Source: a virus (Duplodnaviria > Heunggongvirae > Uroviricota > Caudoviricetes). From it: a DNA stretch of 54,958 nt. The first letter of the stretch is position 1; the number at the start of each line of letters is the position of its first letter. Below are positions 1 to 43,879 of the stretch, in pieces. The position numbers were made by a program, and so were the translations under genes. Below the pieces are notes generated by a model. That model ran no database searches and had not been told where the DNA came from. It was given only the letters and a program-made list of their open reading frames with translations. Location: IMG/VR virus record IMGVR_UViG_2671180568_000004; one strand, written 5' to 3'.

Positions 1-171
1 TCAATAAATCCCATCATTGCGATCAACCTCATCCTTAACCATTGATGCGAGCAGTTCTTCCAGTTTCTGCGCTGACAGCTTTACCTGGTGATCTTCAGCA
101 TCTTCCCGGGCTATTGTGGTTCGCGCAGTGGCTGATTTTGCTGACATCACCACAGGGGGCAGACGGACCAT
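1..171 (-). CDS. hypothetical small protein (about 56 aa)
   Basis: ORF track 1..282 (-) ends with a stop codon at positions 1-3; most plausible start MVRLPP with GGAGG about 10 nt upstream; no recognisable domain. Confidence 0.3.
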   Translation of the reverse strand: MVRLPPVVMSAKSATARTTIAREDAEDHQVKLSAQKLEELLASMVKDEVDRNDGIY

Positions 172-240
172 TGAACCATGGCCTCCGGAACAAATAAGGG
201 CAAAAATAACAACCACTATCGAAAGCTCACAAACTAACCG

Positions 241-406
241 CAGCACGTTCCTGCATACGACGTGTCTGCGGCATAATCCCAATGATTACTCCCTGACAGG
301 ATTTGCAGGCCACTCAATATCAGGTACAGTTGATGTATCAACACGATTCAACAATACCCGATATTTATTCCATGCCTCCAGCAACGATCTTTCTTCCTCC
401 GTTGCG
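241..406. repeat. direct repeat copy A (tfa 3' end, about 165 bp), matches 1291..1455
   Basis: read directly: cagcacgttc...ggcataatcccaatgattactccctgacagg...ccactcaatatcagg...gttgatgtatcaacacg...ttcttcctccgttgc occurs at both loci, roughly 85-90% identical. Confidence 0.8.
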
Positions 407-555
407 ATTTCCAGATCTACAGCATCCTGCAGTGGCGCAATATACTCACTGAATTCCTGGATGTAGAACTGTGTGGTGACGGTCTTCCAGCCATTCGGCT
501 CCTGCTGTATCGAAGCATACCAGGCTATTTCAATATCGCTATGCTGCGGCAGCAT
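286..555 (-). CDS. tfa: tail fibre assembly protein-like (short, 89 aa, Tfa C-terminal domain)
   Basis: C-terminus [51 protein letters not shown] matches the conserved C-terminal region of lambda Tfa as recalled; ATG with AAGGGG RBS; N-terminal part unlike lambda Tfa. Confidence 0.7.
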
Positions 556-611
556 TTAACCCCTTGTAATTCATCGCCATAATTGATTTAATTCACAAAT
601 AAAACTATAAC

Positions 612-1280
612 ATGGTGAAATCAATGAAAAAAAACACAGATGATGGGGCTAAAATTTACACACCACTTACCCTAAAGCTTTATGACTGGTGGGTTTTGGG
701 AGTATCAAATCGGCTTGCATGGGGATGTCCTACAAAGGAACACCTTCTTCCACACTTTCTGGAACATGTAGGTAACAACCATCTGGATATTGGTGTTGGA
801 ACTGGGTTTTACCTTACTCACGTACCTGAGAGTAGTCTGATATCTTTAATGGATTTGAACGAAGCTAGCCTGAACGCGGCATCTACAAGGGCTGGGGAAT
901 CAAAAATTAAACATAAAATTAGCCATGATGTTTTTGAACCTTATCCCGCGGCGTTACATGGTCAATTTGATTCCATTTCCATGTTTTACCTTCTTCACTG
1001 CCTGCCTGGAAATATATCTACAAAAAGCTGTGTAATACGCAATGCGGCGCAGGCCTTAACTGACGATGGAACTCTATACGGAGCCACAATTCTTGGCGAT
1101 GGAGTTGTGCACAATAGCTTCGGTCAAAAACTGATGCGCATTTACAATCAGAAAGGCATCTTTTCAAACACAAAAGATTCCGAAGAAGGCTTAACACATA
1201 TACTCTCAGAGCATTTCGAGAATGTTAAAACCAAGGTTCAAGGTACTGTAGTAATGTTTTCCGCTTCAGGGAAAAAATAG
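612..1280 (+). CDS. class I SAM-dependent methyltransferase (not a DNA methyltransferase by motif)
   Basis: 222 aa; Rossmann motif I LDIGVGTGFY and acidic motif II MDLNE; no DPPY/NPPY or PCQ/ENV DNA-MTase motifs; AT-rich relative to flanks; opposite strand to tail genes. Confidence 0.7.
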   Translation: MVKSMKKNTDDGAKIYTPLTLKLYDWWVLGVSNRLAWGCPTKEHLLPHFLEHVGNNHLDIGVGTGFYLTHVPESSLISLMDLNEASLNAASTRAGESKIKHKISHDVFEPYPAALHGQFDSISMFYLLHCLPGNISTKSCVIRNAAQALTDDGTLYGATILGDGVVHNSFGQKLMRIYNQKGIFSNTKDSEEGLTHILSEHFENVKTKVQGTVVMFSASGKK

Positions 1281-1290
1281 CATCCAACCG

Positions 1291-1455
1291 CAGCACGTTC
1301 TTGCTTAAGACGTGCTGCGGCATAATCCCAATGATTACTCCCTGACAGGGTTCGTAGGCCACTCAATATCAGGTGCAGTTGATGTATCAACACGGTTCAG
1401 CAACACCCGATACTTCTTCCAGGCTTCCAGCAACGGAGTTTCTTCCTCCGTTGCA
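1291..1455. repeat. direct repeat copy B (tfa 3' end relic)
   Basis: second copy of the 241..406 sequence. Confidence 0.8.
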
Positions 1456-1470
1456 TATACAGCTCACCTT
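1335..1470 (-). pseudogene. tfa 3' remnant (encodes only the last ~45 codons of Tfa, no start)
   Basis: minus-strand translation gives [42 protein letters not shown] then stop; preceded in frame by the stop of the upstream ORF. Confidence 0.65.
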
Positions 1471-1473
1471 TTT

Positions 1474-1767
1474 TCACCCACGATTAACCAACAGCCAGAC
1501 CAGCAGACACGCCACCACCGGCACAGCAAAATCCATCAGGCTTGCCACATCCCACGCGCGCGGATCAAAACCGCCCCACCACGGCATATTCATTCGCTTG
1601 CCATGCCCGAACATTTCAATCCAGCGATATTCTGCCTGGGTGTGTTCACGCGCAATGAAGAACGTACAACCAGCTATCGCCCCGTAAGCCCAGTTCCCGG
1701 TAAAAAGACCAATCAGTAGCTGCGCAGCCACAGCACAAAGCGCATGAAGGAAAGGTGTTATATCCAT
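1474..1767 (-). CDS. hypothetical small membrane protein (97 aa, 2-3 predicted TM segments)
   Basis: ATG with AAGGAGG RBS directly downstream of the fibre gene; hydrophobic stretches ALCAVAAQLLIGLF and DFAVPVVACLLVWLLV. Confidence 0.5.
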   Translation of the reverse strand: MDITPFLHALCAVAAQLLIGLFTGNWAYGAIAGCTFFIAREHTQAEYRWIEMFGHGKRMNMPWWGGFDPRAWDVASLMDFAVPVVACLLVWLLVNRG

Positions 1768-1777
1768 TACTCCTCCT

Positions 1778-2482
1778 TTATCCGATATCGCTTCGGGAAA
1801 CGGATAACAACTTTAATTCTGACTCAAGTTCATCAACTCTTTCAGTCAGCTTCTGGATATGGTGAATCAGTGGAACAACCAGACGTTCGTACATTACACC
1901 TTCGGCAACAAGGCCATTGCTGGAAATAGCTTCCGGTGCATCATCTTCGTTAGCTGGTCGCCAGTGTACAAACTGAGGGGCAATTTCTCCTACTTCCTCG
2001 GCAATCAATCCGTAGAATCCCCAGTCACGCCTGTCATTTGCGCATTGTGACCTGTACCACACAGGGCGCATCCTGAAAATGAGATCGGCGTGCTCTGAAT
2101 CTATTGTCTCTACTGAATGTTTATAGCGGATAGACGATGTTGACCGCAGCACAGACGAAATTGCGGGGTCAGGATTAAGATAAAGGTTTGCCGCCGCTGT
2201 AGTCGTGCCCAATCCCCACAAATAAAACGCTTCACGGCCAGTCAACGGGTAAAAATCTCCACCATAACGACCGCTTTCCAGAGCGTTCACTTCCAGTTTG
2301 TTTTTCAGCTTATTATCAACTTCAGTTTTTGTGTATCTGGTGCTGATATCCTGCTTTGCACTGGTCATATCAGCCTGAAGCGTTGATACTTTTCCGTTAA
2401 TTGAGGAAATATCTTCCTTGGCTTTACTGACATCTCCCTTTAACGTGGTGATGTCTCCCGGAATTACTGTCGATGTAGCCAT
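1778..2482 (-). CDS. tail fibre-like protein with C-terminal peptidase S74 / intramolecular chaperone-like domain
   Basis: 234 aa; coiled-coil-like N-terminus; C-terminal WGFYGLIAEEVGEIAPQFV...GLVAEGVMYERLVVPLI resembles S74 chaperone domains of phage fibres (recollection). Confidence 0.6.
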   Translation of the reverse strand: MATSTVIPGDITTLKGDVSKAKEDISSINGKVSTLQADMTSAKQDISTRYTKTEVDNKLKNKLEVNALESGRYGGDFYPLTGREAFYLWGLGTTTAAANLYLNPDPAISSVLRSTSSIRYKHSVETIDSEHADLIFRMRPVWYRSQCANDRRDWGFYGLIAEEVGEIAPQFVHWRPANEDDAPEAISSNGLVAEGVMYERLVVPLIHHIQKLTERVDELESELKLLSVSRSDIG

Positions 2483-2491
2483 TTGTCTCCC

Positions 2492-2773
2492 TCACATCCA
2501 GCCACGAAGTTGATGTTCAACTACAACCGCGTATTCATCGAATATTGACGATTTTTTTGCATCATTAATGATGCGCACGTTTACAAAATATCCATCTTCC
2601 TTAACACATACCGGTTCGCCATCTTCAGTCAGTTCTCCGGTTTCTTTGTACACGTTACCTATCACGTCAATAAGAATATCATCCTGCATCGACTCGTCAT
2701 CATAATAGCCAATGCTATCCATAAAGGCCGAAAAGTCGGCCCTGTCTGCAAATTTGAGTGTTAAATCTTTCAT
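2492..2773 (-). CDS. hypothetical protein (93 aa) between the two fibre genes
   Basis: ORF track; acidic; no recognised domain. Confidence 0.45.
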   Translation of the reverse strand: MKDLTLKFADRADFSAFMDSIGYYDDESMQDDILIDVIGNVYKETGELTEDGEPVCVKEDGYFVNVRIINDAKKSSIFDEYAVVVEHQLRGWM

Positions 2774-5154
2774 TAGATTGACTCCCCCATCTGAGCATCA
2801 GTCAATGCCTTGTGCCATATTCTGAAATTCCTGACATGACCAAATAAATGACGCAACCCGGCTGTAGTCTGGCCTCCAATACGGATAATTGCGGAGTTCT
2901 GAATATAGGACCATGTGGCTTTCTTTTCGCTGGATATACGCCCGTTACTTACTGAGCACGTAGACTGATCTGACTTTACACGCATCCCCATAACCATTTT
3001 TTCAAGCGATGCGTTTTCGTTTACCCGTCTGTTAGCCAAACCTATATCACAATAAGGAAATCCGTCGTAATCTGTTGAACGACCGAAGCCAAGAATAATA
3101 GCCGCTCCGGTTTGATGACCGCCGGTATCAAAAACACGCGGTGCTGCATTTGGCGTTTTATACCAGTTCTTATGTACCTCACAAAGAACCGTAAAAGGAA
3201 GATTATAAAGATTATTCTTAATTGGAACTGTAACTATATCGCTTGCGCGGGTCGCCGCCGTCGCTCCTGATATAATAAAAGATGATACACAAGGCCCATC
3301 TTCTACTTGTGGGGTGGCCAGATAAATATAGTCACCAGATACGGTTGCCCCGCTCTGCTTAGGAGAATACTGTATCTGAGAGCCTATTTTTAACTCCCCA
3401 TCAATTGCCTGAATTGTTGCCTCTGCAAAAATCCATCCGGTAGCTTCGTCCTTTCTGACTCTCGCTGTAATTCTTGAGGCAGCACCGCCTGTCATATTAA
3501 TTTCAAGCGTTTGTGTATCAATATACGCATCACCAAGAAAAGTTGTTGCGCTACCGTCATATTTATCAAACCGGATACGCAACCTTACCTGCAGTTCTGT
3601 TTTAAAACGACATGAGGTTGTCACGTGTTTATTATCGCCTGAGACATCAACTGACTTTGTTGCAGCAATTGATGCCATATTAATGGCTGAGGTTTGCCCA
3701 ATCAGAGAATCGTTGCAGACAAACTTTCCATAGGTAAAACCAAAATTATCCGTCCCTGTTTCGGGCACATCCATATTTGACGATCGCCCCCAACTGGCAG
3801 GGCTTTCCGAATTGAGCATGTAGTTTGTTCTTTGCCCCTCAATAAGCAGGCCATCACGTTCAAATCGTGGCTCGTCAATGGCAGCCTCTGTCAGCACACC
3901 AGATTTGTTAATATAGGTTGCTTTCGATGCACGTTTAAACTTAACAATCTTGTCGCCAGGCATCGTTATTTCATCGTCACCAATAACAATTTTTTTATAT
4001 GATGGCGAAAAGCCCGTAATCATATCCAGCGAATCGTTAAATGGTATCCACACATCAGGCAGCGGCTGTAAGACATATTTATACGGCTCCGCAGCCTGGC
4101 TTGCGTACTCTCTGGCTGCATCTTCGCTTGCTTTAGCTGCCGTCTGGCTTGCTGCCGATGCTTTCGCTGAGTTCGCAGCCGCTGTTTCGCTCACCTTTGC
4201 GTTGGTTTCACTGGTTTTTGCTGCTTTTTGACTGTTAGCTGATGCAGTGGCAGAAGCAGCCGCCGCGCTTGCAGAACTGGCTGCGGCACTCTCGCTTTGG
4301 GCCGCTGCATCCTGACTGCTTTTCGCCGCAGTTTCACTGGCTTTGGCATTCGTTTCGCTGGTCTTCGCTGCCGCCTGGCTGGACTTTGCGTTAGTTTCAC
4401 TCGTCTTCGCAGCTTTCTGGCTGTTAGCCGCAGCAGTTGCTGATCCAGCTGCTGAAGTCGCAGAACCGGCTGCCGCGCTCTCGCTTTGGGCTGCTGCAAC
4501 CTGGCTGTTTTTTGCTGCAGTTTCACTGGCTTTAGCATTCGTTTCGCTGGTCTTCGCTGCCGTCTGGCTGGACTTTGCGTTGGTTTCGCTCGTCTTTGCG
4601 GCTGTCCCGCTATTTTTCGCGTTGGTTTCTGATTTTTTGGCTGCTGTCGCGGAGTTTGCCGATGCAGTCTTTGAGGTCGCTGCCGCCTGTGCGCTGTTAG
4701 CTGCATTCGTTTCTGAGGTTTTCGCCGCGTTCTTCGATGATGCCGCTGCAGTTTCGGATTTCTTTGCCGCCGCTGCGCTCTGAGAGGCGGCTTCAGCGTT
4801 GCGTGCCGCTTCTTCCACCATCTGCTCAAAGCGGCGCAGTGCCTCCGGTCGGACATCATCCTCCGTCATGGCACCGAGAAAATCATTCAGCGTACCTGGT
4901 CTGGAACCTTCATAGACGGTAATGGTCCCGGCATGTGAAGGCGGAAAACCTTCAACCAGCAGGGTGACGCTGTACTGACCATGCTCAACATCCATGCTGT
5001 AACGTCCGGCTTCATCCGGATTTTCAGAAGCCACCGTGTTCACCAGTACCGTGGTGCTGTTACGCTTTGCCTTCAGTTGAATAGTGCAGTTCTGTATTGG
5101 TTTTCCCGCACCATCTTTCAGCACACCTGAGATTTTTACTGCTGCCATATCCAC
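2773..5154 (-). CDS. stf: side tail fibre protein (Stf-like) with Ala/Ser/Thr-rich repeat region
   Basis: 793 aa; N-terminus AVKISGVLKDGAGKPIQNCTIQLKAKRNSTTV...GFPPSHAGTITVYEGSRPGTLNDFLGAMTEDD matches the lambda Stf N-terminal domain as recalled; true start may be the ATG two codons in (MAAVKISG). Confidence 0.85.
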   Translation of the reverse strand: MDMAAVKISGVLKDGAGKPIQNCTIQLKAKRNSTTVLVNTVASENPDEAGRYSMDVEHGQYSVTLLVEGFPPSHAGTITVYEGSRPGTLNDFLGAMTEDDVRPEALRRFEQMVEEAARNAEAASQSAAAAKKSETAAASSKNAAKTSETNAANSAQAAATSKTASANSATAAKKSETNAKNSGTAAKTSETNAKSSQTAAKTSETNAKASETAAKNSQVAAAQSESAAAGSATSAAGSATAAANSQKAAKTSETNAKSSQAAAKTSETNAKASETAAKSSQDAAAQSESAAASSASAAAASATASANSQKAAKTSETNAKVSETAAANSAKASAASQTAAKASEDAAREYASQAAEPYKYVLQPLPDVWIPFNDSLDMITGFSPSYKKIVIGDDEITMPGDKIVKFKRASKATYINKSGVLTEAAIDEPRFERDGLLIEGQRTNYMLNSESPASWGRSSNMDVPETGTDNFGFTYGKFVCNDSLIGQTSAINMASIAATKSVDVSGDNKHVTTSCRFKTELQVRLRIRFDKYDGSATTFLGDAYIDTQTLEINMTGGAASRITARVRKDEATGWIFAEATIQAIDGELKIGSQIQYSPKQSGATVSGDYIYLATPQVEDGPCVSSFIISGATAATRASDIVTVPIKNNLYNLPFTVLCEVHKNWYKTPNAAPRVFDTGGHQTGAAIILGFGRSTDYDGFPYCDIGLANRRVNENASLEKMVMGMRVKSDQSTCSVSNGRISSEKKATWSYIQNSAIIRIGGQTTAGLRHLFGHVRNFRIWHKALTDAQMGESI
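4130..4790. repeat. in-frame coding tandem repeats inside stf (KTSETNAK/SSQTAAK motifs)
   Basis: repeated gctggtcttcgctgcc...gcgtt.gtttc blocks; protein repeats AAKTSETNAKSSQ; the antisense ORFs here are artefacts of the repeat. Confidence 0.7.
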
Positions 5155-5156
5155 TC

Positions 5157-5186
5157 CACAAAAAAGCCCGCCTGAACCGGCGGGCT
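5157..5186 (-). terminator. rho-independent terminator downstream of lom
   Basis: hairpin GCCCGCC-TGAAC-GGCGGGC followed by a T-run on the minus strand. Confidence 0.6.
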
Positions 5187-5212
5187 GTCATAACACTGTG
5201 TTACCTGGCTAA

Positions 5213-5812
5213 TCAGAACTTATAACCGACACCCACGATGAAACCGTCAGTGCGCCAGTCGCCACTGCCGGAGCCTTCATAAGCAATATCAATGGCCACG
5301 GATTCGGTCGGGTTAAACTGCACGCCAGCTCCCCACGCCAGAGACGTGTTGCTGTGGCGATCGTCATCACTTCCGGTCAGCACATCGTGCGTTTTCCCCT
5401 TGTTGTCAGTTACGCGGAGATAATCCCCGGAGAACGTCGAAACACGGCTGTAAGCCACACCTGCCATCGCATAAGCACTGAACCATTCATTCACGCGTAC
5501 AGATGGCCCCGCCATCATGCTGAACCAGCGGTTACGCACTGAATCTTCATGCCAGCGGGTATCGCTGTAATGCGTTTTTTGCTCATCTTTGGCATTGGCA
5601 TAACTGAATGACGTCACCAGCCCCAGCGTGTCCGTAAATTCATAACGGTATTTCACGTTAATGCCCTTCAGGTCATCGTTGCCGGGCATATCAGTATGGG
5701 TCTGAAGATACCCGGCGCTTAGTGTGGACTGATGCTCTGCTGCGCTCGCTGGCGTACCAGCGGCGACCAGCCAGACTACTGTGGACAGAATAACAGCACA
5801 TAATTTACGCAT
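5213..5812 (-). CDS. lom: Lom/Ail-family outer membrane protein
   Basis: 199 aa; signal peptide, beta-barrel pattern ending GFIVGVGYKF; sits between J and stf as in lambda. Confidence 0.9.
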   Translation of the reverse strand: MRKLCAVILSTVVWLVAAGTPASAAEHQSTLSAGYLQTHTDMPGNDDLKGINVKYRYEFTDTLGLVTSFSYANAKDEQKTHYSDTRWHEDSVRNRWFSMMAGPSVRVNEWFSAYAMAGVAYSRVSTFSGDYLRVTDNKGKTHDVLTGSDDDRHSNTSLAWGAGVQFNPTESVAIDIAYEGSGSGDWRTDGFIVGVGYKF

Positions 5813-5833
5813 AATTACCTCTCGCTTTTCTGC

Positions 5834-5859
5834 AAAAAAAAGGCACCATTTCTGGTGCC
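5834..5859 (-). terminator. rho-independent terminator downstream of J
   Basis: hairpin GGCACCA-TTTC-TGGTGCC with an 8-nt T-run on the minus strand. Confidence 0.6.
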
Positions 5860-5878
5860 CGTATCTGGGTTATAAAAT

Positions 5879-8800
5879 TCAGCTAATCGTGATGCCTGCA
5901 GTGGCTTTCTTCATCACAACAACCAGCAAATCGCTGATACTTGCTGTGGGATACCAGCCATTTACCAGCCATGCTGACACCGAAAACTCCAGCGTCATGT
6001 GACCGTGACCGGCAGGCATATCAATAACGCCACTGTAAATCAGCGTATTATCCAGCGCGGTACGGTTATAAATTTCAGCACCGTTTTTCCGCACTATCAG
6101 ACGGCATGAGGAGTAAATATCAGTATGCTCTCTCTCATGCTTAGCGCCACTGAATGCCACAGCCGGAATAACAATTTGCCGGTCAAACGGCTGATCGTCA
6201 TAAACCCTGACGGTAATGGTCCCTGATGGCCACCGCTCCGGTGCCCGGGAGTCACGGGGGAAAGCTTTGCCCACTGTTTTAACGAGATCGCCTTCAATCT
6301 GGTTCGCGGACAGTTTTCCCAGAACCCGGCAGTTCTCGTTAATCGTGACGTTGTTGAGCGTCCCGGAGTTCGCATTCACGTTACCGCTGATATCGGCATT
6401 TTTCGCCGTCAGCCGCCCGTCCGGTGTCAGGGAAAATGCCGGAGGATTACCGCCGCTGGTAATGGTGGGGGCCGTCAGGCGCTTCAGGAACACGTCGTTC
6501 ATGAATATCTGGTTGCCCTGCGCCACAAACATCGGCGTTTCATTCCCGTTTGCCGGGTCAATAAACGCGATACGGTTAGCGGCAACCAGGAACTGGCTCA
6601 GTTTGCCTTCCTCCGTATCCTCCATGCTGAGGCCAAGCCCCGCGACATAATGTTTGCCGTCTTTGGTCTGCTCAATTTTGACGCCCCACATGGCATTCCA
6701 TTTATCGTTGGCGTCCTTCCACTCTTTCGAAAACTCCTCCAGTTTGCTGGCGTTATCTTCCGTCAGCTCAAAGTTTTCCAGCAGTTCCTTGCCGAGATGC
6801 GTTTTATTGATCAACCCTTTATAAAAATTCAGATAACCTTCCGCATCATCGCTCGCCCGACCAACGGCCTCCACAAATGCCGATTTACCAACGGTGTTCA
6901 CGCTGCGGATATAAAAGTAATAATCATAACCCGGCTTAATATTGCTACTGGCGGCTATCCAGTACAGCGCCGTACCAAGATAACGCGCGCTGGTTTCAAC
7001 CTGCCTGATATCCGCAATCCGCTTTTCCGAGAACCAGAACTCAAACTGTACCGTCGGGTCATAAACGGCAAGATGCGGCGTGGCGGTTATCTGAAAATAG
7101 CCCGGCGTCAGCTCAATCCGCGACGGTGCTGCCGGTGCGGCAATCCGGAAGGTGGTGGTGGCAGGTTCACCCTGCTGGCCATAGCTGTTTATCGCCCGCA
7201 CCGTCAGGGTGTATTCCCCGAGCGGCAGGCCGCTGAAACGGTGCTCCGTGTCTGCGGTGATGGCGGTGGTCACCAGTCTGGCATCCGTTCCCTTACCACT
7301 GGTCAGGCGCAGACTGAAGCGCACGCCCTTCACCACCCGCGGCGTGTCCCATTTAGCCTGCGCCAGATACTGGCCGTCAGCTGCGCTCACCTCCACCGTC
7401 AGGTGCTGTACTGCCGGTGGGATGACGCTGTTCAGGGAGCCTGACTGCGGCTCAAAGCGGGCACCGTTATCCACGATGGCTTCTTTTTCCGGTACGTGCT
7501 GCACCGCCGTGATGGCAAAGGTGCCGTCCGTGTTTTCCCGGATGGAGACACAGCGGAACAGGCGACGGCGCAGTGACGGCAGGGAGAGTCCCCACACCCC
7601 GTATGTCTCCACACCATCAGGCAGGGTACTGACCTGTATCCGGTCCGGCGCGGGGTGTTCGGTGATGTCCACACTCACTGGCTTACCGCTGCCGTTAATC
7701 AGGTTCACCGTGGCGGCACCGGTCTCCGGAAGTGTCACTTCACGGTCCAGCGTCAGGGTGCGGGTGGCAGCATCAATGGACAGGACACGTCCGCCGGTCA
7801 GGGTCCCGGCATAGTCGTTATCACAGATTTCAATGATGTCACCGGGTGTGTGCCGCAGCCCCTGAGACCCGAGCGTGAAATCCACCGTCTGCGTTTCCAG
7901 CAGTTCGGTCTTTATCACCCACAGTCCGGCACGGTGGGCCTGACCGCGGCTGGTACAGCCGAACGCGTCCATCTTCAGCAGGTTGCGTCCGTAGCGCAGT
8001 ATGGCTTCCGGGTCTTCCACCAGTTCCGTGGAGGTCTGCCAGCCGTTCTGCGGGTCGGTGTAATTCACCTCCACCGCCGTGTGCCGGTCCTTCAGGGCAC
8101 TGAAGCTGTAGCGGAATCCCACGCCGTTATCATCCACCACCACATCGCTGTTGGTGTACGGCCACACCACATCCGACGGGCGGTCCTGAACGAACGTCAG
8201 CGTCTGACCGTTCCATACCGGCATACAGCGCATCGCAGAGCAGAAATCACTGAGAACGTCCCACGCCTTACGCTGTTGTGCCAGGTACGCATTAAAGGTC
8301 ATCCGCGGCTCGGTCCCCCCGAAACCATCCGGGACCGTCTGATCGCAGTACTGCCCGATGGCATACAGCGCCCACTTGTCCACATCCGCCGCCTCCAGAC
8401 GTTTTCCCATGCCGTAGCGCGGGTGAGTCAGCATGTCCCACAGGCACCAGGCCGGGTTGTTGCTGTATGCCGGTTTCAGACTGCCGTCCCAGATACCACT
8501 GTACGTGCGTTTTTCCGGGTCATAGTTTGACGGCACCTGGATGATACGACCGCGGATATGGTAGTTCACCGTCATCTGCTGGCCGCCGAACTGCTCCGCA
8601 TCCACCTGCAGCCCCACAATGGCCGTGTTCGGGTAGCACTGTTTCACATCGATGATTTCGGTGTATGACGACCACAGCGTCTTATTCTGCAGCTGGTCCG
8701 TGGTGCTGTCCGCCGTCTCCCTGACCATCCGGATGTTAAAGGGCCGGGGAGGCAGATTATCCAGAATCACCGAGGCCAGGAACTGTGAGGTGGTCTTGCC

Positions 8801-29271: not shown

Positions 29272-32200
29272 TTATGATGATGCCGGTGCATTTATCTCCA
29301 GCACCAGGCTGCCGATATCGACGCCATACGCTGCATTTTTGGTAATATCCGTCAGCGTCAGCGCATTCAGCCCCAGTGTCAGACTGTCTTTTATGACCTG
29401 GAATGCCGGGCCAGCCACTCCATTCAGTTTCGGAGTAACCGTGGCACTGCCGGCGGTGAACACCAGCTCCAGCGTCTGCCAGTCGTTACTGTAATTCCCG
29501 AACTCGCCCAACTTTGTGTTTCCGGCTTTCTTGTGATGCATCAGATTCAGTTTGCCGTCTGTGGTCTGGGTGAAGAACGACATCAGGAACGGGTTACCAG
29601 TCCCGGTCATCGCCACGACGTCAGGTAACGCTACATCGGTATACAGATAAATTCCCAGACCGAACTGGTTGTTGGTCAGTGCGCCTGACAGTCGAAACTT
29701 ACAGCTCAGTCTGCCACCCCGTGTCAGCAGGGAGACTGCGTCATCCACCGGATGCATCAGGGACCAGGTTTTATTGCTCTGCTTGGTAACCTTAAACACA
29801 CCATCTTCCAGCGCAACACTGCCGCCGGTGATGGTCCAGCCCTGCGCAGCAGCCTCTCCGGCTGTCGGCAGCAGGGAGACTGTACGAACGGATGTGTCAC
29901 CATCAGACGGCCCCGATGGNNNNNNNNNNCGTCAGCGCATTCAGCCCCAGTGTCAGACTGTCTTTTATGACCTGGAATGCCGGGCCAGCCACTCCATTCA
30001 GTTTCGGAGTAACCGTGGCACTGCCGGCGGTGAACACCAGCTCCAGCGTCTGCCAGTCGTTACTGTAATTCCCGAACTCGCCCAACTTTGTGTTTCCGGC
30101 TTTCTTGTGATGCATCAGATTCAGTTTGCCGTCTGTGGTCTGGGTGAAGAACGACATCAGGAACGGGTTACCAGTCCCGGTCATCGCCACGACGTCAGGT
30201 AACGCTACATCGGTATACAGATAAATTCCCAGACCGAACTGGTTGTTGGTCAGTGCGCCTGACAGTCGAAACTTACAGCTCAGTCTGCCACCCCGTGTCA
30301 GCAGGGAGACTGCGTCATCCACCGGATGCATCAGGGACCAGGTTTTATTGCTCTGCTTGGTAACCTTAAACACACCATCTTCCAGCGCAACACTGCCGCC
30401 GGTGATGGTCCAGCCCTGCGCAGCAGCCTCTCCGGCTGTCGGCAGCAGGGAGACTGTACGAACGGATGTGTCACCATCAGACGGCCCCGATGGCGTGTCG
30501 CCGCCGGGTGAGGGTTTAATCTCCGGTGCGGTACCGCTGATGAAGGCGCTGGTTCGACCAACTGCGTTCAGAATAGCGGTTGCCAGGCGATCCGAAATAA
30601 TGCCCCTGCGCGCCCATGAACTGAAATGTGTCGGACGATTTGACGATACCCAATTACCATTACTACGGGATAGCGCGCCGTAATAACCTGCATCAGCAAT
30701 ATCCGGGTCTTCTGCCGGTAAGTTGGTGGGCGTGTTGTTGCCGTTACCGTCGGTCATGAACGGCACAAAGAAAACGTTGTCGCTCTCCCTGTTTTTGTAC
30801 GCGCCGTAGACGGAGTCATACTGTGTGCCGTATGTGTTTTTCCAGTAATACGTCGTGTCGCCACAAATCCACGGTACAACTGCAGCACTGCCGCCATGGC
30901 ACTGCGCGTTAAATCCGGAAAGGTCAGTACGGAACTGCTTCAGCATGGCCGTGAACAGGTCCGGTTGCTGTGCGTAGGTGGCAGCGCTCATGTCAAATTC
31001 GCCCTGCATCCAGCACACCGCCAGCAACACATTTTTCGGGTTCTTCTGTAATGCNNNNNNNNNNGAGGGTTTAATCTCCGGTGCGGTACCGCTGATGAAG
31101 GCGCTGGTTCGACCAACTGCGTTCAGAATAGCGGTTGCCAGGCGATCCGAAATAATGCCCCTGCGCGCCCATGAACTGAAATGTGTCGGACGATTTGACG
31201 ATACCCAATTACCATTACTACGGGATAGCGCGCCGTAATAACCTGCATCAGCAATATCCGGGTCTTCTGCCGGTAAGTTGGTGGGCGTGTTGTTGCCGTT
31301 ACCGTCGGTCATGAACGGCACAAAGAAAACGTTGTCGCTCTCCCTGTTTTTGTACGCGCCGTAGACGGAGTCATACTGTGTGCCGTATGTGTTTTTCCAG
31401 TAATACGTCGTGTCGCCACAAATCCACGGTACAACTGCAGCACTGCCGCCATGGCACTGCGCGTTAAATCCGGAAAGGTCAGTACGGAACTGCTTCAGCA
31501 TGGCCGTGAACAGGTCCGGTTGCTGTGCGTAGGTGGCAGCGCTCATGTCAAATTCGCCCTGCATCCAGCACACCGCCAGCAACACATTTTTCGGGTTCTT
31601 CTGTAATGCCGCTTTGGTGCGTGCGATCAGGTCCTGATATAACGGTTTACCCACACCCCAGCGTGCCGAATCCTGGCTGGCCCCCGTGTCCGCACTGAAT
31701 GTCCCCTCCGCGCCCTGGGTGAATGCCGAACCACCACGACAGCATGGTACCAGCAGGATCCCCGCGTTATTCGGGATATACGGAAGCAGTTTTTTGGCAA
31801 TATGTAAGCCCTGGCCGACACAGCCGTACTGCCCTTTGCTCAGGTCTGCCTTCGGATGATTCAGTGCGCTCATATCCTGAACATCATGCAGGCAGTGGTC
31901 TGCCGGAATGATGTCGTTAAATGCGCATGCTTTACCACCGGGAGTCACTGTGTTGCGACGGGCCAGTTGCTTAATGCGTGGGTGGGGCGCATCGTAAGAA
32001 TCCGGAAGCGGAAGCCCTTCACCGTAAGCCATGGCATTGGATTGCCCGGCCAGTACGATGACGTAGTACCACTCCGGCTCAGTTGCACCACTGACGACCA
32101 CATCACCTTCTGCTGCAATCGCCTGCATCAGGGTATAAGGGGTTATGGCCACCGGACTACCAAACGGCTGCCAGCCCTCTTTCATTTTATGTGTCAGCTT

Positions 32201-32853: not shown

Positions 32854-32888
32854 GCAGTTTACTCACATCTGACAAAATCAATATAAAC

Positions 32889-33069
32889 AGCCCCTCCGGA
32901 GAGGGGCTGGAGAGTGGCGCTATGTGCCATTGCATGGTGCCGGGTGCCTCCCGGTGAATTCAGTACCAGCACCTGAATCCGCGATTATCCCATATACCTA
33001 CTCGCTGATTACCCCTCCGCACAGGGGGATTCACCATGCGAAATTTTTTAACAAACTTCCCGCCGGCCA
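32889..33069. repeat. copy A of a ~180-bp element (hairpin AGCCCCTCCGGAGAGGGGCT plus conserved blocks)
   Basis: shares hairpin, GCATGGTGCC.GG.GCCTCCCGGT.AATTCAG, GGGGGATTCACCATGCGA and TTTTAACAAA...GCCAGACAAT.ATC with copy B. Confidence 0.7.
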
Positions 33070-33341: not shown

Positions 33342-33539
33342 TGCACAGAAAAGCCCCTCCGGAGAGGGGCTGAAGTATAGCCTAATTTCTGTCTGTCGCA
33401 TGGTGCCAGGGGCCTCCCGGTAAATTCAGCCTGTCTACTGAATTTGCATGTTCTCTGGATCATACACTTTGCCAGATGCCCCGCCGCTGAGGGGGATTCA
33501 CCATGCGATGTAATTTTTAACAAATTCTCCGGCAGCCAG
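33342..33539. repeat. copy B of the same element, same orientation
   Basis: see copy A. Confidence 0.7.
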
Positions 33540-33799: not shown

Positions 33800-33876
33800 T
33801 GGACCGCCATCGGGGACTTGAACCCCGCGCAGCCAGCTTCGAAGGCTGGCGCTCTATCCCGATGAGCTAATGGCGG
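33800..33876 (-). tRNA. tRNA-Arg (anticodon UCG)
   Basis: cloverleaf by eye: acceptor CCGCCAT/ATGGCGG, D-arm TAGCTCATCGGGATAGAGC, anticodon loop CTTCGAA, T-arm GGGGTTCAAGTCCCC, CCA. Confidence 0.75.
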
Positions 33877-33883
33877 TATGTGA

Positions 33884-33959
33884 TGGTGGCCCTTGCTGGA
33901 TTTGAACCAGCGACCTGGCGATTATGAGTCGCTCGCTCTCACCACTGAGCTAAAGGGCC
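33884..33959 (-). tRNA. tRNA-Ile2/Met-type (anticodon CAU), ileX/ileZ-like
   Basis: GGCCCTTTAGCTCAGTGGTGAGAGCGAGCGACTCATAATCGCCAGGTCGCTGGTTCAAATCCAGCAAGGGCCACCA; near-identical in architecture to E. coli ileX as recalled. Confidence 0.85.
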
Positions 33960-38326: not shown

Positions 38327-38482
38327 TTACTCCTCAGGTTCGTAAGCTGTGAAGACAGCGACCTCCGTCTGGCCGGTTCGGATTCGTACCTCGCAGAGGT
38401 CTTTCCTCGTTACCAGTGCCGTCACTATGACGGTTAAACAGATGACGATCAGGGCGATTAGCATCGCCTTTTGCTGCTTCAT
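38327..38482 (-). CDS. hok: Hok/Gef-family type I toxin (51 aa)
   Basis: MKQQKAMLIALIVICLTVIVTALVTRKDLCEVRIRTGQTEVAVFTAYEPEE; in-frame upstream extension to 38539 may be a mok-like frame. Confidence 0.85.
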   Translation of the reverse strand: MKQQKAMLIALIVICLTVIVTALVTRKDLCEVRIRTGQTEVAVFTAYEPEE

Positions 38483-38773
38483 AGCCTGCTTCTCCTTGCC
38501 TTTCGGCACGTAAGAGGCTAACCTACGTGTGTAGAGCATAGATATGGCCTCAGATTAATGTTAAGCGTCTTGCCGGACGCGTAATGTTAACTGGGGCTTT
38601 TCTCTATCTGCCTTTTGGTGTTCATGCCTGAGACAGATAGCCTCAAGCACCCGCTGCAATTCTACTTAACTCTCCTTTTCCCGCAAACCGTTTTTATCCC
38701 CAGCGGCAAATCGAATACACCACCAGCGCCACCGCCATCGCAATTCCTACCGTTGTTAATGCTTCAGGCCAGC

Positions 38774-41840: not shown

Positions 41841-42102
41841 CGCACCACCTCCTCAAAATTCCCCTGATAAAACGTAAGCGTACAGCCTGAACCGTCTGGT
41901 CAGAATCTGACGAATTAGACAAAGTGGTGTCCACCAAATAAGTAGTGGGAACCAAAGTGTCAGATATGCAGAAAAATGTGACTCCCGGCAGGCGAAAAGG
42001 CTGCCCTAATTATCCTCCCGAATTTAAACAGCAGCTCGTTGCTGCCTCCTGTGAACCCGGGATATCCATCTCAAAACTTGCTCTTGAAAATGGCATTAAC
42101 GC

Positions 42103-42112
42103 NNNNNNNNNN
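42103..42112. other. N10 scaffold gap; 41874..42102 repeated verbatim at 42113..42341 (restart exactly at the IS end)
   Basis: read directly. Confidence 0.9.
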
Positions 42113-42183
42113 GTAAGCGTACAGCCTGAACCGTCTGGTCAGAATCTGACGAATTAGACAAAGTGGTGTCCACCAAATAAGTA

Positions 42184-42585
42184 GTGGGAACCAAAGTGTC
42201 AGATATGCAGAAAAATGTGACTCCCGGCAGGCGAAAAGGCTGCCCTAATTATCCTCCCGAATTTAAACAGCAGCTCGTTGCTGCCTCCTGTGAACCCGGG
42301 ATATCCATCTCAAAACTTGCTCTTGAAAATGGCATTAACGCCAATCTGTTGTTCAAATGGCGACAACAATGGCGCGAGGGAAAGCTGCTATTACCTTCTT
42401 CAGAGAGCCCCCAGCTACTTCCTGTGACTCTCGATGCAACTGCCGAACAGCCAGAATCGCTCGCAGAGGACCCGGAAACCCTCAGTATCAGCTGTGAGGT
42501 AACGTTCCGGCACGGGACGCTCCGCTTCAATGGCAATGTCAGCGAAAAGCTCCTGACTCTGCTGATACAGGAACTGAAGCGATGA
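42184..42585 (+). CDS. IS66-family accessory protein (first ORF)
   Basis: 133 aa; HTH-like N-terminus; a partial duplicate lies at 41945..42102 before the gap. Confidence 0.8.
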   Translation: MGTKVSDMQKNVTPGRRKGCPNYPPEFKQQLVAASCEPGISISKLALENGINANLLFKWRQQWREGKLLLPSSESPQLLPVTLDATAEQPESLAEDPETLSISCEVTFRHGTLRFNGNVSEKLLTLLIQELKR

Positions 42586-42929
42586 TCCCGTTACCTTCCG
42601 GGACCAAAATTTGGCTGGTTGCCGGTATCACCGATATGAGAAATGGCTTCAACGGCCTGGCTGCGAAAGTACAGACGGCGCTGAAAGACGATCCCATGTC
42701 CGGCCATGTTTTCATTTTCCGGGGCCGCAGCGGCAGTCAGGTTAAACTGCTGTGGTCCACCGGTGACGGGCTGTGCCTCCTGACCAAACGGCTGGAGCGT
42801 GGGCGCTTCGCCTGGCCGTCAGCCCGTGATGGCAAAGTGTTCCTTACGCAGGCGCAGCTGGCGATGCTGCTGGAAGGTATCGACTGGCGACAGCCCAAGC
42901 GGCTGCTGACCTCCCTGACCATGCTGTAA
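42582..42929 (+). CDS. IS66-family TnpB-like protein (second ORF)
   Basis: 115 aa; overlaps the first ORF by 4 nt. Confidence 0.8.
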   Translation: MIPLPSGTKIWLVAGITDMRNGFNGLAAKVQTALKDDPMSGHVFIFRGRSGSQVKLLWSTGDGLCLLTKRLERGRFAWPSARDGKVFLTQAQLAMLLEGIDWRQPKRLLTSLTML

Positions 42930-42978
42930 ATCTCTTTATCCTGGTTGTCACAGAATAAGCCCGGTAAAATACGGGCTT

Positions 42979-43841
42979 ATGAACGACATCTCTTCTGACG
43001 ACATCTTCCTGCTGAAACAGCGCCTGGCCGAACAGGAAGCGCTGATCCACGCCCTGCAGGAAAAGCTGAGCAACCGGGAGCGCGAAATAGACCATCTGCA
43101 GGCGCAGCTGGATAAACTCCGCCGGATGAACTTCGGCAGTCGTTCCGAAAAAGTCTCCCGCCGTATCGCACAAATGGAAGCCGATCTGAACCGGCTTCAG
43201 AAAGAGAGCGATACGCTGACTGGTAGGGTGTATGACCCGGCAGTACAGCGTCCGTTGCGTCAGACCCGCACCCGTAAGCCGTTCCCTGAATCACTACCCC
43301 GTGACGAAAAGCGACTGTTGCCTGCGGCGCCGTGCTGCCCGAACTGCGGCGGTTCACTGAGCTATCTGGGCGAGGATACCGCCGAACAGCTGGAGTTGAT
43401 GCGTAGCGCCTTCCGGGTTATCCGGACGGTACGGGAAAAACATGCCTGTACTCAGTGCGATGCCATCGTGCAGGCACCTGCACCTTCGCGGCCCATCGAG
43501 CGGGGTATCGCCGGACCGGGGCTGCTGGCCCGCGTGCTGACCTCGAAGTATGCAGAGCACACCCCGCTGTATCGCCAGTCAGAAATATACGGCCGGCAAG
43601 GTGTGGAGCTGAGCCGTTCACTGCTGTCGGGCTGGGTGGATGCATGCTGCCGGCTGCTGTCTCCGCTGGAAGAGGCGCTTCATGGCTATGTCATGACTGA
43701 CGGCAAACTCCATGCCGATGATACCCCGGTCCAGGTACTGCTGCCGGGTAATAAGAAGACGAAGACCGGGCGGTTGTGGGCGTATGTTCGTGATGACCGC
43801 AATGCCGGGTCAGCGTTGGCACCTGCAGTGTGGTTCGCTTA
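42979..43841 (+). CDS. IS66-family transposase, 5' part (continues at 45633 in this scaffold)
   Basis: zinc-finger CCPNCGG...CTQCD and coiled-coil N-terminus; sequence 43738..43841 reappears at 45633..45736. Confidence 0.75.
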
Positions 43842-43879
43842 GGGGTCTGACGCTCAGTGGAACGAAAACTCACGTTAAG
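43842..43879. repeat. Tn3-family 38-bp terminal inverted repeat
   Basis: GGGGTCTGACGCTCAGTGGAACGAAAACTCACGTTAAG read directly. Confidence 0.85.

What the first reader, a model, noticed from the sequence alone, without database searches (positions are those of the whole stretch)
241..1470. Methyltransferase moron bracketed by direct repeats of the tfa 3' end
A 222-aa class I SAM-dependent methyltransferase (no DNA-MTase motifs) lies on the opposite strand to the tail genes, in AT-rich DNA, between two ~165-bp direct repeats that are both tfa 3' ends. One repeat is part of a short intact Tfa-like gene; the other is an untranslatable relic. This suggests acquisition by recombination between tfa genes of two phages; the substrate is unknown.
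Basis: partly seen in the sequence, partly recalled or inferred. Interest (0 to 1): 0.6.

Follow-up and report, generated by a model that had tools for sequence, protein, structure and literature searches.

The report
Intact ybcY prophage methyltransferase cassette
This is the intact form of ybcY, a long-annotated methyltransferase cargo gene of E. coli lambda-like prophages that sits between two leftover ends of tail-fibre chaperone genes; the layout is real but common, and what the enzyme methylates is still unknown.

Summary
A 222-codon ORF (612-1280, +; the real start is probably ATG 624, giving 218 aa) encodes a class I SAM-dependent methyltransferase in 41% GC DNA. It is bracketed by direct repeats 236-405 and 1286-1454 (152/170 identical), each a tfa 3' end plus its terminator-like hairpin.

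It is not new. It is the intact allele of E. coli K-12 ybcY (b0562), and the layout matches DLP12 tfaD-ybcY-tfaX. The gene occurs in 3832 of 5426 complete E. coli genomes and in 15 phage records, and is phrog_2132 (unknown function).

The window is a lambdoid prophage at ompW, with the cassette at its tail-fibre end. The "short intact Tfa-like gene" is a chimera: 37 cassette-linked codons fused to the Tfa C-terminus. Breakpoints fall inside both repeats. A prophage at the same ompW site lacks ybcY and carries one hybrid relic (copy A on the left, copy B on the right), so the repeats have recombined.

The fold resembles small-molecule and lipid methyltransferases, with no DNA-methyltransferase motifs. 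More distant homologues (50-68% identity) are stand-alone chromosomal genes across Gammaproteobacteria. The substrate is unresolved. Interest is low.

The parts
1..189 (-). Relic of a DUF4376 (tail-fibre chaperone-like) gene. It is the last recognisable prophage sequence before the ompW remnant, which lies just outside the window.
   Evidence: PGAP pseudogene at L001 7920-8189, with an internal stop and missing N-terminus. The OmpW fragment is at L001 7572-7697.
214..235 (.). Native flank downstream of the tfa terminator hairpin. It is shared with ybcY-less prophages.
   Evidence: Window 214-271 matches L020 1654-1710. Window 214-405 matches L104 3001-3191.
236..405 (-). Direct repeat copy A: the tfa 3' end (coding 286-405) plus 50 bp of 3' UTR. 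Homology to full-length tfa genes continues to 451.
238..271 (.). Hairpin of copy A (degenerate, with one bulge).
   Evidence: RNA fold: -17.9 kcal/mol on the + strand (z -3.5) and -24.1 on the - strand. Weak terminator-like hit on the - strand at 255-239.
286..555 (-). 89-aa TfaX-like ORF, a chimera. Codons 1-37 (445-555) travel with the methyltransferase. The rest is the C-terminal third of a Tfa.
   Evidence: Caudo_TAP positions 75-130 of 131 only. phrog_2341 end to end, and residues 3-37 match phrog_3893. The first 37 aa are 76% identical to an ORF beside the Citrobacter homologue, which then continues with a non-Tfa sequence. PGAP calls it a pseudogene.
452..1285 (+). Unique cassette DNA between the tfa-derived repeats (834 bp): the 5' stub of a divergent small gene, the promoter region and ybcY.
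   Evidence: Limits of tfa homology. L104 homology to the window begins at 1281, one base after the ybcY stop codon.
583..611 (+). Sigma-70-type promoter TTGATT-17-TATAAC for ybcY.
   Evidence: Read directly from the sequence. The identical hexamers are assigned to K-12 ybcY in a genomic SELEX study of RpoD holoenzyme binding, which also flags H-NS at the spacer (PMC3946193). Both hexamers are kept in seven of the eight other E. coli-type alleles printed and in Citrobacter; L023 and L025 read TATAAT.
612..1280 (+). ybcY, a class I SAM-dependent methyltransferase. The ORF runs from 612 (222 aa); the probable start is ATG 624 (218 aa), preceded by GGTGA.
   Evidence: It is 98.6% identical over 216 aa to K-12 ybcY. 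PhiR26_1 annotates its copy as YbcY.
1288..1320 (.). Hairpin of copy B, 8 nt after the ybcY stop codon and between convergent ybcY and tfa. Likely a shared or bidirectional terminator. On the - strand a T-run follows about 10 nt later.
   Evidence: RNA fold: -23.0 kcal/mol on the + strand (z -4.9) and -28.5 on the - strand (z -5.0), with 0 of 200 shuffles folding as well.
1286..1454 (-). Direct repeat copy B: a relic of the upstream, once full-length tfa (the tfaD equivalent). It keeps 39 sense codons plus the stop codon (1335-1454), then the 3' UTR.
   Evidence: PGAP pseudogene at L001 9335-9454.
1455..1767 (-). Start of the swapped-in tail-fibre module. The junction is at 1454/1455, and the 97-aa membrane ORF is at 1474-1767 (phrog_1443, unknown function).
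   Evidence: The junction is shared with ev243 and with ybcY-less prophages L019, L020, L103 and L104. PHROG match.

Best explanation
The region is the ybcY cassette, a common cargo ('moron') module of E. coli lambdoid prophages. Here it lies at the tail-fibre end of a prophage integrated at ompW.

Shown:
- ybcY is an autonomous transcription unit, antisense to the late tail operon. It has its own conserved sigma-70-type promoter, and it shares the tfa terminator hairpin, which starts 8 nt after its stop codon.
- It encodes a complete 218-aa class I SAM-dependent methyltransferase that is under purifying selection.
- The gene belongs to a family of stand-alone genes across Gammaproteobacteria. 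All tfa-flanked copies among the loci examined are at least 90% identical to the window protein.
- The unique cassette is 834 bp. It sits between a tfa 3' end (full-length in DLP12 and PhiR26_1) and a second, roughly 10% diverged copy of the last 216 bp of tfa plus UTR.
- In this window a later tail-fibre module swap cut the first tfa down to 169 bp.
- The two direct repeats act as portable homology arms. Breakpoints with other prophages fall inside them, and a prophage at the same ompW site has the hybrid single copy expected from recombination between them.

Inferred:
- The cassette arose from an illegitimate join between two phages: a small gene upstream of ybcY in one phage and the middle of tfa in another.
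- The enzyme methylates a small molecule or lipid in the lysogen (O-, N- or S-methylation) rather than DNA, RNA caps or the tail fibre.
- Expression is damped by H-NS.
For: Identity and layout:
- K-12 DLP12 has tfaD, ybcY (pseudogene, opposite strand), tfaX, appY and ompT in that order.
- The window aligns to K-12 over 309-1454 at 96.9% and to PhiR26_1 over 331-1454 at 99.3%.
- PhiR26_1 labels its copy YbcY.
- phrog_2132 matches 218 of 218 positions, E 3.9e-157.

Prevalence:
- 3832 of 5426 complete E. coli genomes, 4877 places, all at least 95% nucleotide identity.
- 15 phage records.
- The junctions occur in at least 3074 and at least 2630 genomes.

Moron features:
- Promoter TTGATT-17-TATAAC at 583-611, equal to the K-12 ybcY promoter in an RpoD SELEX study that also flags H-NS (PMC3946193). 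It is conserved across alleles.
- Hairpin at 1288-1320, z about -4.9.
- GC 41.2% against 52.4% for the window.
- ybcY-less comparators with the same flanks: L103, L104 and L020.

Enzyme:
- Pfam Methyltransf_12, _23, _25 and _11 all above their cut-offs.
- AlphaFold2 model with mean pLDDT 89.9.
- dN/dS is 0.10-0.21 against Citrobacter, Salmonella and Enterobacter homologues.

Origin:
- Homologues at 50-68% identity are stand-alone chromosomal genes with no neighbour conserved across genera.
- None of the 76 fetched loci whose copy is 79% identical or less has a tfa fragment within the fetched flanks. tfa fragments flank only copies at least 90% identical.

Recombination:
- The single relic in L103 is A-type from the DUF4376 relic through the hairpin and B-type from about position 312 onward. 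The crossover lies in a stretch identical between the copies.
Against: - No substrate or phenotype is known. Of 11 papers that contain the string 'ybcY', none addresses its function, and a K-12 ybcY deletion made no difference in the one assay found.
- With the TTGATT-17-TATAAC promoter the transcript would start near 618, leaving almost no leader before ATG 624. The promoter actually used is therefore uncertain. The consensus scan instead reported TTAACC-16-CATAAT at 556-583.
- L103 is only about 96% identical to the window in the flanks, so it is not a recent derivative. The hybrid relic cannot tell loss from gain.
- No deletion product was found for the ev243/PhiR26-type flanks: 0 of 5426 genomes.
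- ybcY is a pseudogene in K-12, through a 2-nt loss at the start codon and A8 tract. It is therefore dispensable in the laboratory.
Confidence: 0.8

Rival explanations
1. YbcY is a nucleic-acid modification enzyme. On this reading it is a phage DNA or RNA methyltransferase that protects phage DNA from restriction or acts in epigenetic control.
For: It is a phage-borne SAM-dependent methyltransferase. A few RNA-modifying enzymes appear far down the structure lists: CmoA, Trm9, METTL6 and cap methyltransferases.
Against: - It has no DPPY/NPPY or PCQ/ENV motifs and no target-recognition domain in its 218 aa.
- No DNA methyltransferase appears among the top PDB neighbours.
- There is no PADLOC hit above noise.
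- Among the homologues at 50-68% identity, no conserved neighbour of any kind (so no restriction partner) recurs across genera.
- The near-identical PCN033 prophage already has a separate DNA-methyltransferase gene near Q.
Confidence: 0.05
2. YbcY is an envelope or receptor-modifying lysogenic-conversion enzyme, for example a phospholipid head-group N-methyltransferase like PmtA. It would change susceptibility to phages or antimicrobials, which would fit its position next to the tail-fibre genes.
For: - The best Foldseek PDB hit is the bacterial phosphatidylethanolamine N-methyltransferase 8ys9 (E 1e-11, TM 0.61-0.66), followed by phosphoethanolamine methyltransferases.
- There is a faint NCBIfam PmtA hit.
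- The N-terminal helices are Trp-rich and invariant.
- The b-region next to tail genes often carries envelope cargo such as lom, ompT and bor.
Against: - The NCBIfam PmtA score is 15.7 bits against a cut-off of 390.
- E. coli is not known to make methylated phosphatidylethanolamine or phosphatidylcholine, even though 71% of genomes carry ybcY (own knowledge).
- Position next to tail genes reflects where morons accumulate and is not evidence of functional linkage.
Confidence: 0.12
3. The cassette is decaying junk. On this reading ybcY and both tfa fragments are relics with no current function, kept only by hitch-hiking on successful prophages.
For: - Both tfa pieces and the DUF4376 piece are relics.
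- ybcY is a pseudogene in K-12.
- The region is flagged as H-NS bound.
- No phenotype has been reported.
Against: - The full-length ORF is kept in a cluster of 6589 member sequences (P0002) and in isolated, viable phages.
- dN/dS is about 0.1-0.2.
- 60 columns are invariant across 36 homologues, including the SAM motifs.
- The promoter is conserved in Citrobacter as well.
Confidence: 0.1
4. The repeats come from a local tandem duplication or a transposition-type insertion with target duplication, or they are the remains of a Gin/Pin-type invertible tail-fibre segment. On any of these readings they would not come from recombination between two phages.
For: - Direct repeats flanking an insert resemble a target duplication.
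- Phage Kati has a DNA invertase between ybcY and tfa.
Against: - The repeats are 170-216 bp long and about 10% diverged, which is far too long and too different for a target-site duplication.
- There is no transposase and there are no terminal inverted repeats. No inverted repeats at all were found in 1-4000.
- The copies are direct, and no invertase is annotated in the near-identical PCN033 prophage.
- The left repeat is fused in frame to an unrelated 37-codon stub that travels with ybcY in Citrobacter. This points to an illegitimate join between two different molecules.
Confidence: 0.05

Closest known systems
E. coli K-12 DLP12 cryptic prophage segment tfaD (b0561) - ybcY (b0562) - tfaX (b0563)
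   Same: Same gene: 98.6% amino-acid identity over 216 residues. Same orientation, same promoter hexamers and same tfa-fragment flanks. DNA is 96.9% identical over window 309-1454.
   Different: K-12 ybcY is a pseudogene (a 2-nt loss removes the start codon and shifts the frame), and tfaD is full-length. Here ybcY is intact and the tfaD equivalent is cut to 169 bp by a tail-fibre module swap. The far side here is a DUF4376 relic and the ompW attachment end, not appY-ompT.
ybcY cassette in isolated temperate coliphages (ev243, 2G7b, PhiR26_1, PhiR29, Kati, Turner); phrog_2132
   Same: 98-100% protein identity and the same tfaX-type fragment on the promoter side. ev243 even shares the 1454/1455 junction with the 97-aa gene.
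   Different: Those phages continue with an alpha/beta hydrolase, ompT and int beyond tfaX, and their tfaX has a different 3' end (breakpoint at window 331). Kati has an invertase and other small ORFs between ybcY and tfa.
Lambdoid-phage 'morons' in the sense of Hendrix and Juhala (for example lambda lom and bor, HK97 gene 15)
   Same: An extra transcription unit with its own promoter and terminator and deviant base composition. It sits between genes that are adjacent in related phages.
   Different: Classic morons are usually described without flanking homology. Here the moron is bracketed by diverged copies of the neighbouring gene's 3' end, which gives it homology arms.
Small-molecule and lipid class I methyltransferases with solved structures (M. 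mazei MM_2633, BelI, DhpI, Coq5, UbiG, PmtA 8ys9, JHAMT, PfPMT)
   Different: Only 11-21% identity, with no family-level sequence match. The NCBIfam equivalog scores are far below their cut-offs. The invariant 'LYDWWVL..SN..AW.C' N-terminal motif is specific to the YbcY family.

Membership tests
YbcY family (phrog_2132; K-12 b0562) | End-to-end match to the family profile, and near-identity to K-12 ybcY | tested here: met
   phrog_2132 matches 1-218 of 218, E 3.9e-157. 98.6% identity over 216 aa to the K-12 locus.
YbcY family (phrog_2132; K-12 b0562) | Synteny: convergent with an upstream tfa and divergent from a tfaX-type fragment | tested here: met
   The junctions are shared by at least 3074 and at least 2630 genomes.
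Class I (Rossmann-fold) SAM-dependent methyltransferase | Motif I GxGxG, an acidic residue after strand 2, and a Pfam methyltransferase domain above the gathering score | tested here: met
   'LDIGVGTG' with invariant D81 and H105-D106. Methyltransf_12 scores 37.5 bits against a cut-off of 30.
Class I (Rossmann-fold) SAM-dependent methyltransferase | Seven-stranded alpha/beta fold | tested here: met
Class I (Rossmann-fold) SAM-dependent methyltransferase | SAM binding and methyl transfer demonstrated | not testable with these tools
   Needs biochemistry.
DNA methyltransferases (N6A/N4C or C5) | Catalytic (D/N/S)PP(Y/F/W) or PCQ...ENV motifs and a target-recognition domain | tested here: not met
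   No such motif in the 222-aa translation or among the conserved columns. No DNA methyltransferase among the top structural neighbours.
Phospholipid N-methyltransferase PmtA | NCBIfam equivalog NF045882 at or above its cut-off of 390 bits | tested here: not met
   15.7 bits, E 0.0098. The resemblance is at fold level only.
Moron (autonomous cargo unit in a lambdoid phage) | Own promoter and terminator | tested here: met
   TTGATT-17-TATAAC at 583-611, which equals the K-12 ybcY RpoD-SELEX promoter. Hairpin at 1288-1320, z -4.9. In vivo use was not tested.
Moron (autonomous cargo unit in a lambdoid phage) | Absent from related phages in which the flanking sequences are contiguous, and deviant base composition | tested here: met
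   L103 (same ompW site) and L104 lack it and have contiguous flanks. GC is 41.2% against 52.4%.
Moron (autonomous cargo unit in a lambdoid phage) | Expressed from the repressed prophage | not testable with these tools
   The only evidence is in vitro RNA polymerase binding in K-12 (PMC3946193).
Tail fibre assembly protein Tfa (Pfam Caudo_TAP PF02413), for the 89-aa ORF 286-555 | Coverage of the whole domain, including the N-terminal two thirds | tested here: not met
   Only profile positions 75-130 of 131 are matched. Residues 1-37 are unrelated to TfaD or lambda-type Tfa.
Invertible tail-fibre segment (Gin/Cin/Pin type) | Inverted repeats flanking alternative fibre/tfa genes, with an adjacent invertase | tested here: not met
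   Zero inverted repeats in 1-4000. The repeats are direct, and no invertase is annotated in the near-identical PCN033 prophage.
Anti-phage defence system component | Match to a PADLOC model | tested here: not met
   Only a 12.8-bit, E 0.0096 partial hit to mad2.

The most novel reading that the evidence does not exclude
YbcY is a true lysogenic-conversion enzyme with a specific small-molecule or envelope-lipid substrate, such as a host metabolite, a toxin or a phospholipid head group. On this reading its methylation benefits the lysogen, which would explain why an intact, promoter-equipped copy sits in about 70% of E. coli genomes. The diverged tfa-end repeats would be what lets it move between, and drop out of, otherwise unrelated tail-fibre loci.
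Probability: 0.2. Interest if true: 0.5.

Novelty: already known. Interest (0 to 1): 0.18.

Why it matters
The finding matters little as a discovery. The gene (ybcY) and its tfaD/tfaX flanks are annotated in the current K-12 record, and the gene is annotated in thousands of genomes.

Two points are still useful:
- ybcY is one of the commonest prophage cargo genes in E. coli, present in 71% of closed genomes, and its substrate is still unknown. It is a cheap target for enzymology and metabolomics.
- The locus is a clean, checkable example of how a conserved 3' gene end serves as a homology arm for moving or losing cargo between mosaic phages. It offers a matched pair of prophages, with and without the cassette, at the same chromosomal site.

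Tried and rejected
- **PDB sequence searches.** Both the single-sequence and the profile search gave only weak hits to JHAMT and UbiG. No family could be assigned.
- **Gene neighbourhood.** I clustered the ORFs around 80 homologous loci. Conserved neighbours appear only within Pseudomonas and reflect plain synteny. There is no cross-genus partner, so no pathway clue.
- **PADLOC.** Nothing above noise.
- **Literature on ybcY and tfaX.** No functional data.
- **Synthetic 'deletion product' query with ev243/PhiR26-type flanks.** 0 of 5426 genomes matched.
- **Same test with the window's own flanks.** The tool at first joined the two pieces across the cassette. Listing 60 rows separated the true single-piece, ybcY-less hits.
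- **PGAP 'DinI fragment' upstream of ybcY in L021.** The + strand translation of the equivalent window stretch shows no convincing DinI similarity. The Pfam test failed on stop codons and I did not pursue it.
- **Mapping PCN033 annotation onto the whole window.** Abandoned, because the window differs from that assembly by duplications and indels beyond about 29.9 kb.
- **Rejected readings.** Transposon target duplication, invertible segment, DNA methyltransferase, and host housekeeping gene from adjacent chromosome. On the last point, the ompW remnant lies beyond the DUF4376 relic, outside the window.
Full report
**1. What is in the sequence**

The stretch 1-3000 was read and its ORFs listed. 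On the + strand, ORF 612-1280 encodes 222 aa with the motif 'LDIGVGTG'. On the - strand the order is:
- a side tail fibre gene (2773-5154, phage_tail_N domain);
- ORFs of 93, 234 (Peptidase_S74 chaperone domain) and 97 aa;
- a gap;
- beyond the methyltransferase, an 89-aa ORF at 286-555.

The repeat finder reports direct repeats 266-405/1315-1454 and 236-264/1286-1314 at 90% identity, offset by one base. Realigned, they form one repeat of 170/169 nt with 152 identical positions and one indel. There is no third copy in the window.

The methyltransferase ORF is 41.2% GC, against 52.4% for the window.

**2. Where the window comes from**

Window 1-2500 is 100% identical to E. coli PCN033. In that genome the region is the tail-fibre end of a lambdoid prophage inserted in ompW beside yciEFG and trp. 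Reading outward along the prophage (on the - strand unless marked), the order is gpJ, lom, stf, the three small ORFs, a tfa pseudogene fragment, the methyltransferase (+ strand), a second tfa pseudogene fragment, a DUF4376 pseudogene, and then an OmpW fragment.

The rest of the window is the remainder of the prophage up to the integrase. The methyltransferase is therefore phage cargo and not adjacent host sequence.

**3. It is ybcY**

A tblastn search of phage records found 15 Escherichia phages with 98-100% identical proteins. PhiR26_1 annotates its copy as 'putative uncharacterized protein YbcY', in the order stf, tfa (585 nt), ybcY, tfa (306 nt), hydrolase, ompT.

The K-12 record shows the same layout in cryptic prophage DLP12: tfaD (564 nt), ybcY (pseudogene, opposite strand), tfaX (186 nt), appY, ompT. 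The window aligns to K-12 over 309-1454 at 96.9%. Its protein is 98.6% identical to the K-12 reading frame over 216 residues.

K-12's lesion is a 2-nt loss at the ATG and A8 tract. It removes the start codon and shifts the frame.

In PHROGs the protein is phrog_2132, matched end to end and of unknown function.

A megablast search with the gene alone finds it in 3832 of 5426 complete E. coli genomes (4877 places, up to 4 per genome), all at 95% nucleotide identity or better. The ybcY-to-tfa junction occurs in at least 3074 genomes and the tfaX-to-ybcY junction in at least 2630. The finding is therefore a very common, already named arrangement.

**4. Anatomy of the cassette**

- **Repeat unit.** Each repeat holds about 120 bp of tfa coding sequence plus about 50 bp of 3' UTR. 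The UTR contains a hairpin: 238-271 in copy A and 1288-1320 in copy B. Folding energies are -18 to -28.5 kcal/mol and z-scores -2.6 to -5.0.
- **Copy B.** It keeps 39 in-frame tfa codons (…[32 protein letters not shown]), preceded by a stop codon.
- **Copy A.** Its homology to full-length tfa genes runs to 451, or 216 bp.
- **The 89-aa ORF is a chimera.**
  - Residues from about 38 onward are the Tfa C-terminus (Caudo_TAP positions 75-130 of 131).
  - Residues 1-37 do not align with TfaD or lambda-type Tfa but match phrog_3893.
  - Those first 37 residues are 76% identical to the start of an ORF beside the 90%-identical methyltransferase of Citrobacter freundii. That ORF then continues with a non-Tfa sequence.
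  - The whole chimera is a recurrent family, phrog_2341.
- **Unique cassette.** It spans 452-1285, or 834 bp. On the right, a ybcY-less prophage (L104) is 99.4% identical to the window from 1281 onward, one base after the ybcY stop codon. ybcY therefore abuts the tfa terminator hairpin.
- **Promoter.**
  - TTGATT-17-TATAAC lies at 583-611 (read).
  - It is the sequence assigned to K-12 ybcY in a genomic SELEX map of RpoD holoenzyme sites. That map also flags H-NS at this spacer (PMC3946193).
  - Both hexamers are kept in seven of the eight other E. coli-type alleles printed and in Citrobacter; L023 and L025 read TATAAT.
- **Start codon.** All 35 aligned homologues start at the position of M5, and GGTGA precedes ATG 624. 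The product is therefore most likely 218 aa.

**5. History written in the flanks**

- **Breakpoints inside both repeats.**
  - On the left, homology with K-12 and Kati begins at 309, and with PhiR26_1 and ev243 at 331.
  - On the right, homology with K-12 and PhiR26_1 ends at 1454 and with Kati at 1320.
  - ev243 runs on through the 97-aa gene to 1778.
- **The 1454/1455 junction is a separate event.** It joins the tfa relic to the 97-aa gene, and it also exists in prophages without ybcY (L019, L020, L103, L104). The truncation of the upstream tfa is thus a tail-fibre module swap, independent of the methyltransferase.
- **Test for ybcY-less sites.** I built the sequence expected if the two repeats recombined (window 1-405 joined to 1455-1860) and searched it. 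Single-piece, ybcY-less matches exist.
- **L103 (strains ECL27977 and ECL27829).** The prophage sits at the same ompW site with the same DUF4376 relic. It has one tfa relic and no ybcY. That relic follows copy A from the DUF4376 side through the hairpin, and copy B from about position 312 to the 97-aa gene. The switch lies in a stretch identical between the copies.
- **What L103 shows.** This is the signature of a crossover between the two repeats. The flanks are only about 96% identical to the window, so the direction (loss or gain) and the date cannot be told.
- **Negative result.** The equivalent test with ev243/PhiR26-type flanks found nothing.
- **Most economical origin (inference).**
  - The roughly 10% divergence between the copies fits two different tfa alleles.
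  - The in-frame fusion to a foreign 37-codon stub fits a join between different molecules.
  - I therefore infer an illegitimate join between a phage carrying tfa-hairpin-ybcY-(small gene) and the middle of another phage's tfa, followed by spread through homologous exchange in the tfa ends.

**6. What the enzyme is**

- **Sequence.**
  - The protein passes the Pfam gathering scores for generic methyltransferase domains.
  - NCBIfam gives only sub-threshold hits to CpaM, RquA and PmtA.
  - PDB sequence and profile searches reach only JHAMT and UbiG, with a best E of 5e-6.
- **What is absent.** No DNA-methyltransferase motif or neighbour appears, and PADLOC finds nothing.
- **Family.** It has 2296 detectable members in the protein collection and 527 matching stretches in the species-representative genome collection, spanning Enterobacterales, Pasteurellaceae, Pseudomonas, Xanthomonadales and Oxalobacteraceae at 50% identity or more.
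- **Context of homologues.**
  - At 50-68% identity the genes are stand-alone, and no neighbour is conserved across genera.
  - tfa fragments flank only the copies that are at least 90% identical to the window protein.
  - The 90% Citrobacter copy keeps only the 37-codon stub and no Tfa-derived part. It lies beside a DinI-family gene and a CdiI-type immunity gene.
- **Selection.** dN/dS against Citrobacter, Salmonella and Enterobacter homologues is 0.10-0.21.
- **Conserved residues.** Sixty columns are invariant, including an N-terminal 'LYDWWVL..SN..AW.C' helix and 'YLLHCLPG' after motif IV.
- **Conclusion.** The best-supported reading is a functional enzyme acting on a small molecule or lipid, captured by a phage from an enterobacterial chromosome. 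The substrate remains unknown.

**7. Literature**

Eleven papers contain the string 'ybcY' (several as unrelated abbreviations). None addresses its function. One reports that a K-12 ybcY mutant made no difference to Hha toxicity. Another uses ybcY only as a landmark next to ompT in uropathogenic strains. tfaX appears as one of many weak hits in an over-expression screen for kanamycin survival.

**8. Verdict**

Its recombination idea is partly borne out, and there is now a matched comparator lacking the insert.

The feature itself is the known ybcY cassette of DLP12-type and other lambdoid prophages. It is ordinary in kind (a moron in the mosaic tail-fibre/b-region) and extremely common. What remains open is the substrate of YbcY.

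Interest is low (0.18). Novelty: already known.

Noticed in passing
window 1474-1767 (-) and 2492-2773 (-): Two small conserved ORFs lie inside the tail-fibre module: a 97-aa predicted membrane protein (phrog_1443) and a 93-aa protein (phrog_1361). Both have unknown function. The module 1460-2780 occurs at 80% coverage or better in 723 complete E. coli genomes.
   Followed up: partly
L020 (NZ_CP024257.1) 1654-3495, compared with window 214-271 and 1348-1454: In a prophage at the lambda attachment site (bioA/ybhB), a convergent diguanylate cyclase gene lies immediately downstream of the tfa relic, where ybcY lies in the window. A 58-bp copy of the tfa-downstream hairpin element lies on its far side. 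In L104 a convergent DinI-like gene follows the tfa relic and its hairpin. The position is a general cargo slot.
   Followed up: partly
window 624-640: The probable ybcY start codon is followed directly by an A8 tract (ATGAAAAAAAAC). The K-12 pseudogene differs by a 2-nt loss exactly here. This may be a slippage-prone on/off site. I did not survey it across genomes.
   Followed up: no
window 1225-1362 (-): PGAP annotates a 45-aa 'hypothetical protein' (WP_001309429.1) that overlaps the 3' end of ybcY, the hairpin and the tfa relic. It is most likely a spurious call.
   Followed up: no
window 1281-1295, compared with L009 6664-6680 and L104 3018-3035: The sequence just after the ybcY stop codon (TAGCATCCAACCGCAG) resembles two others. 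One is the Citrobacter ybcY downstream flank (TAGCATCCAGACCGCAT). The other is the native tfa-downstream flank in a ybcY-less prophage (CCATCCAACCGCAG). This may be microhomology at the original right-hand junction.
   Followed up: no
window 32879-33067, 33343-33536, 33803-33959, 38477-38652, 50371-50422: Rfam gathering-level hits elsewhere in the prophage: two STnc100 sRNA copies, two tRNAs, sok antitoxin RNA and DicF.
   Followed up: no
window 18661-19266: When the window is aligned to PCN033, this stretch also gives off-diagonal matches at offsets of 162 and 324 bp (88-91% identity). That indicates internal tandem repeats with a 162-bp period. By position in PCN033 they fall within the annotated portal protein gene.
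   Followed up: no
window ~29930-31054, 42100-45630 (against PCN033): The window is not identical to the PCN033 assembly beyond about 29.9 kb. Overlapping alignment blocks indicate an extra copy of about 0.5 kb near 29.9-31.1 kb. Window 43842-45632 has no match in the PCN033 stretch compared. The PCN033 annotation shows an ISEc8 (IS66 family) element inside the replication region, a separate DNA methyltransferase near Q, and IraM, hokD and dicB. The prophage may be defective.
   Followed up: no
L019 (NZ_CP084683.1, BL21(RP)) 1-8320: In this assembly the tail-fibre module with its tfa relic lies between tRNA genes, a cat gene and an IS1 fragment, next to rRNA. It looks like an integrated or mis-assembled plasmid region.
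   Followed up: no
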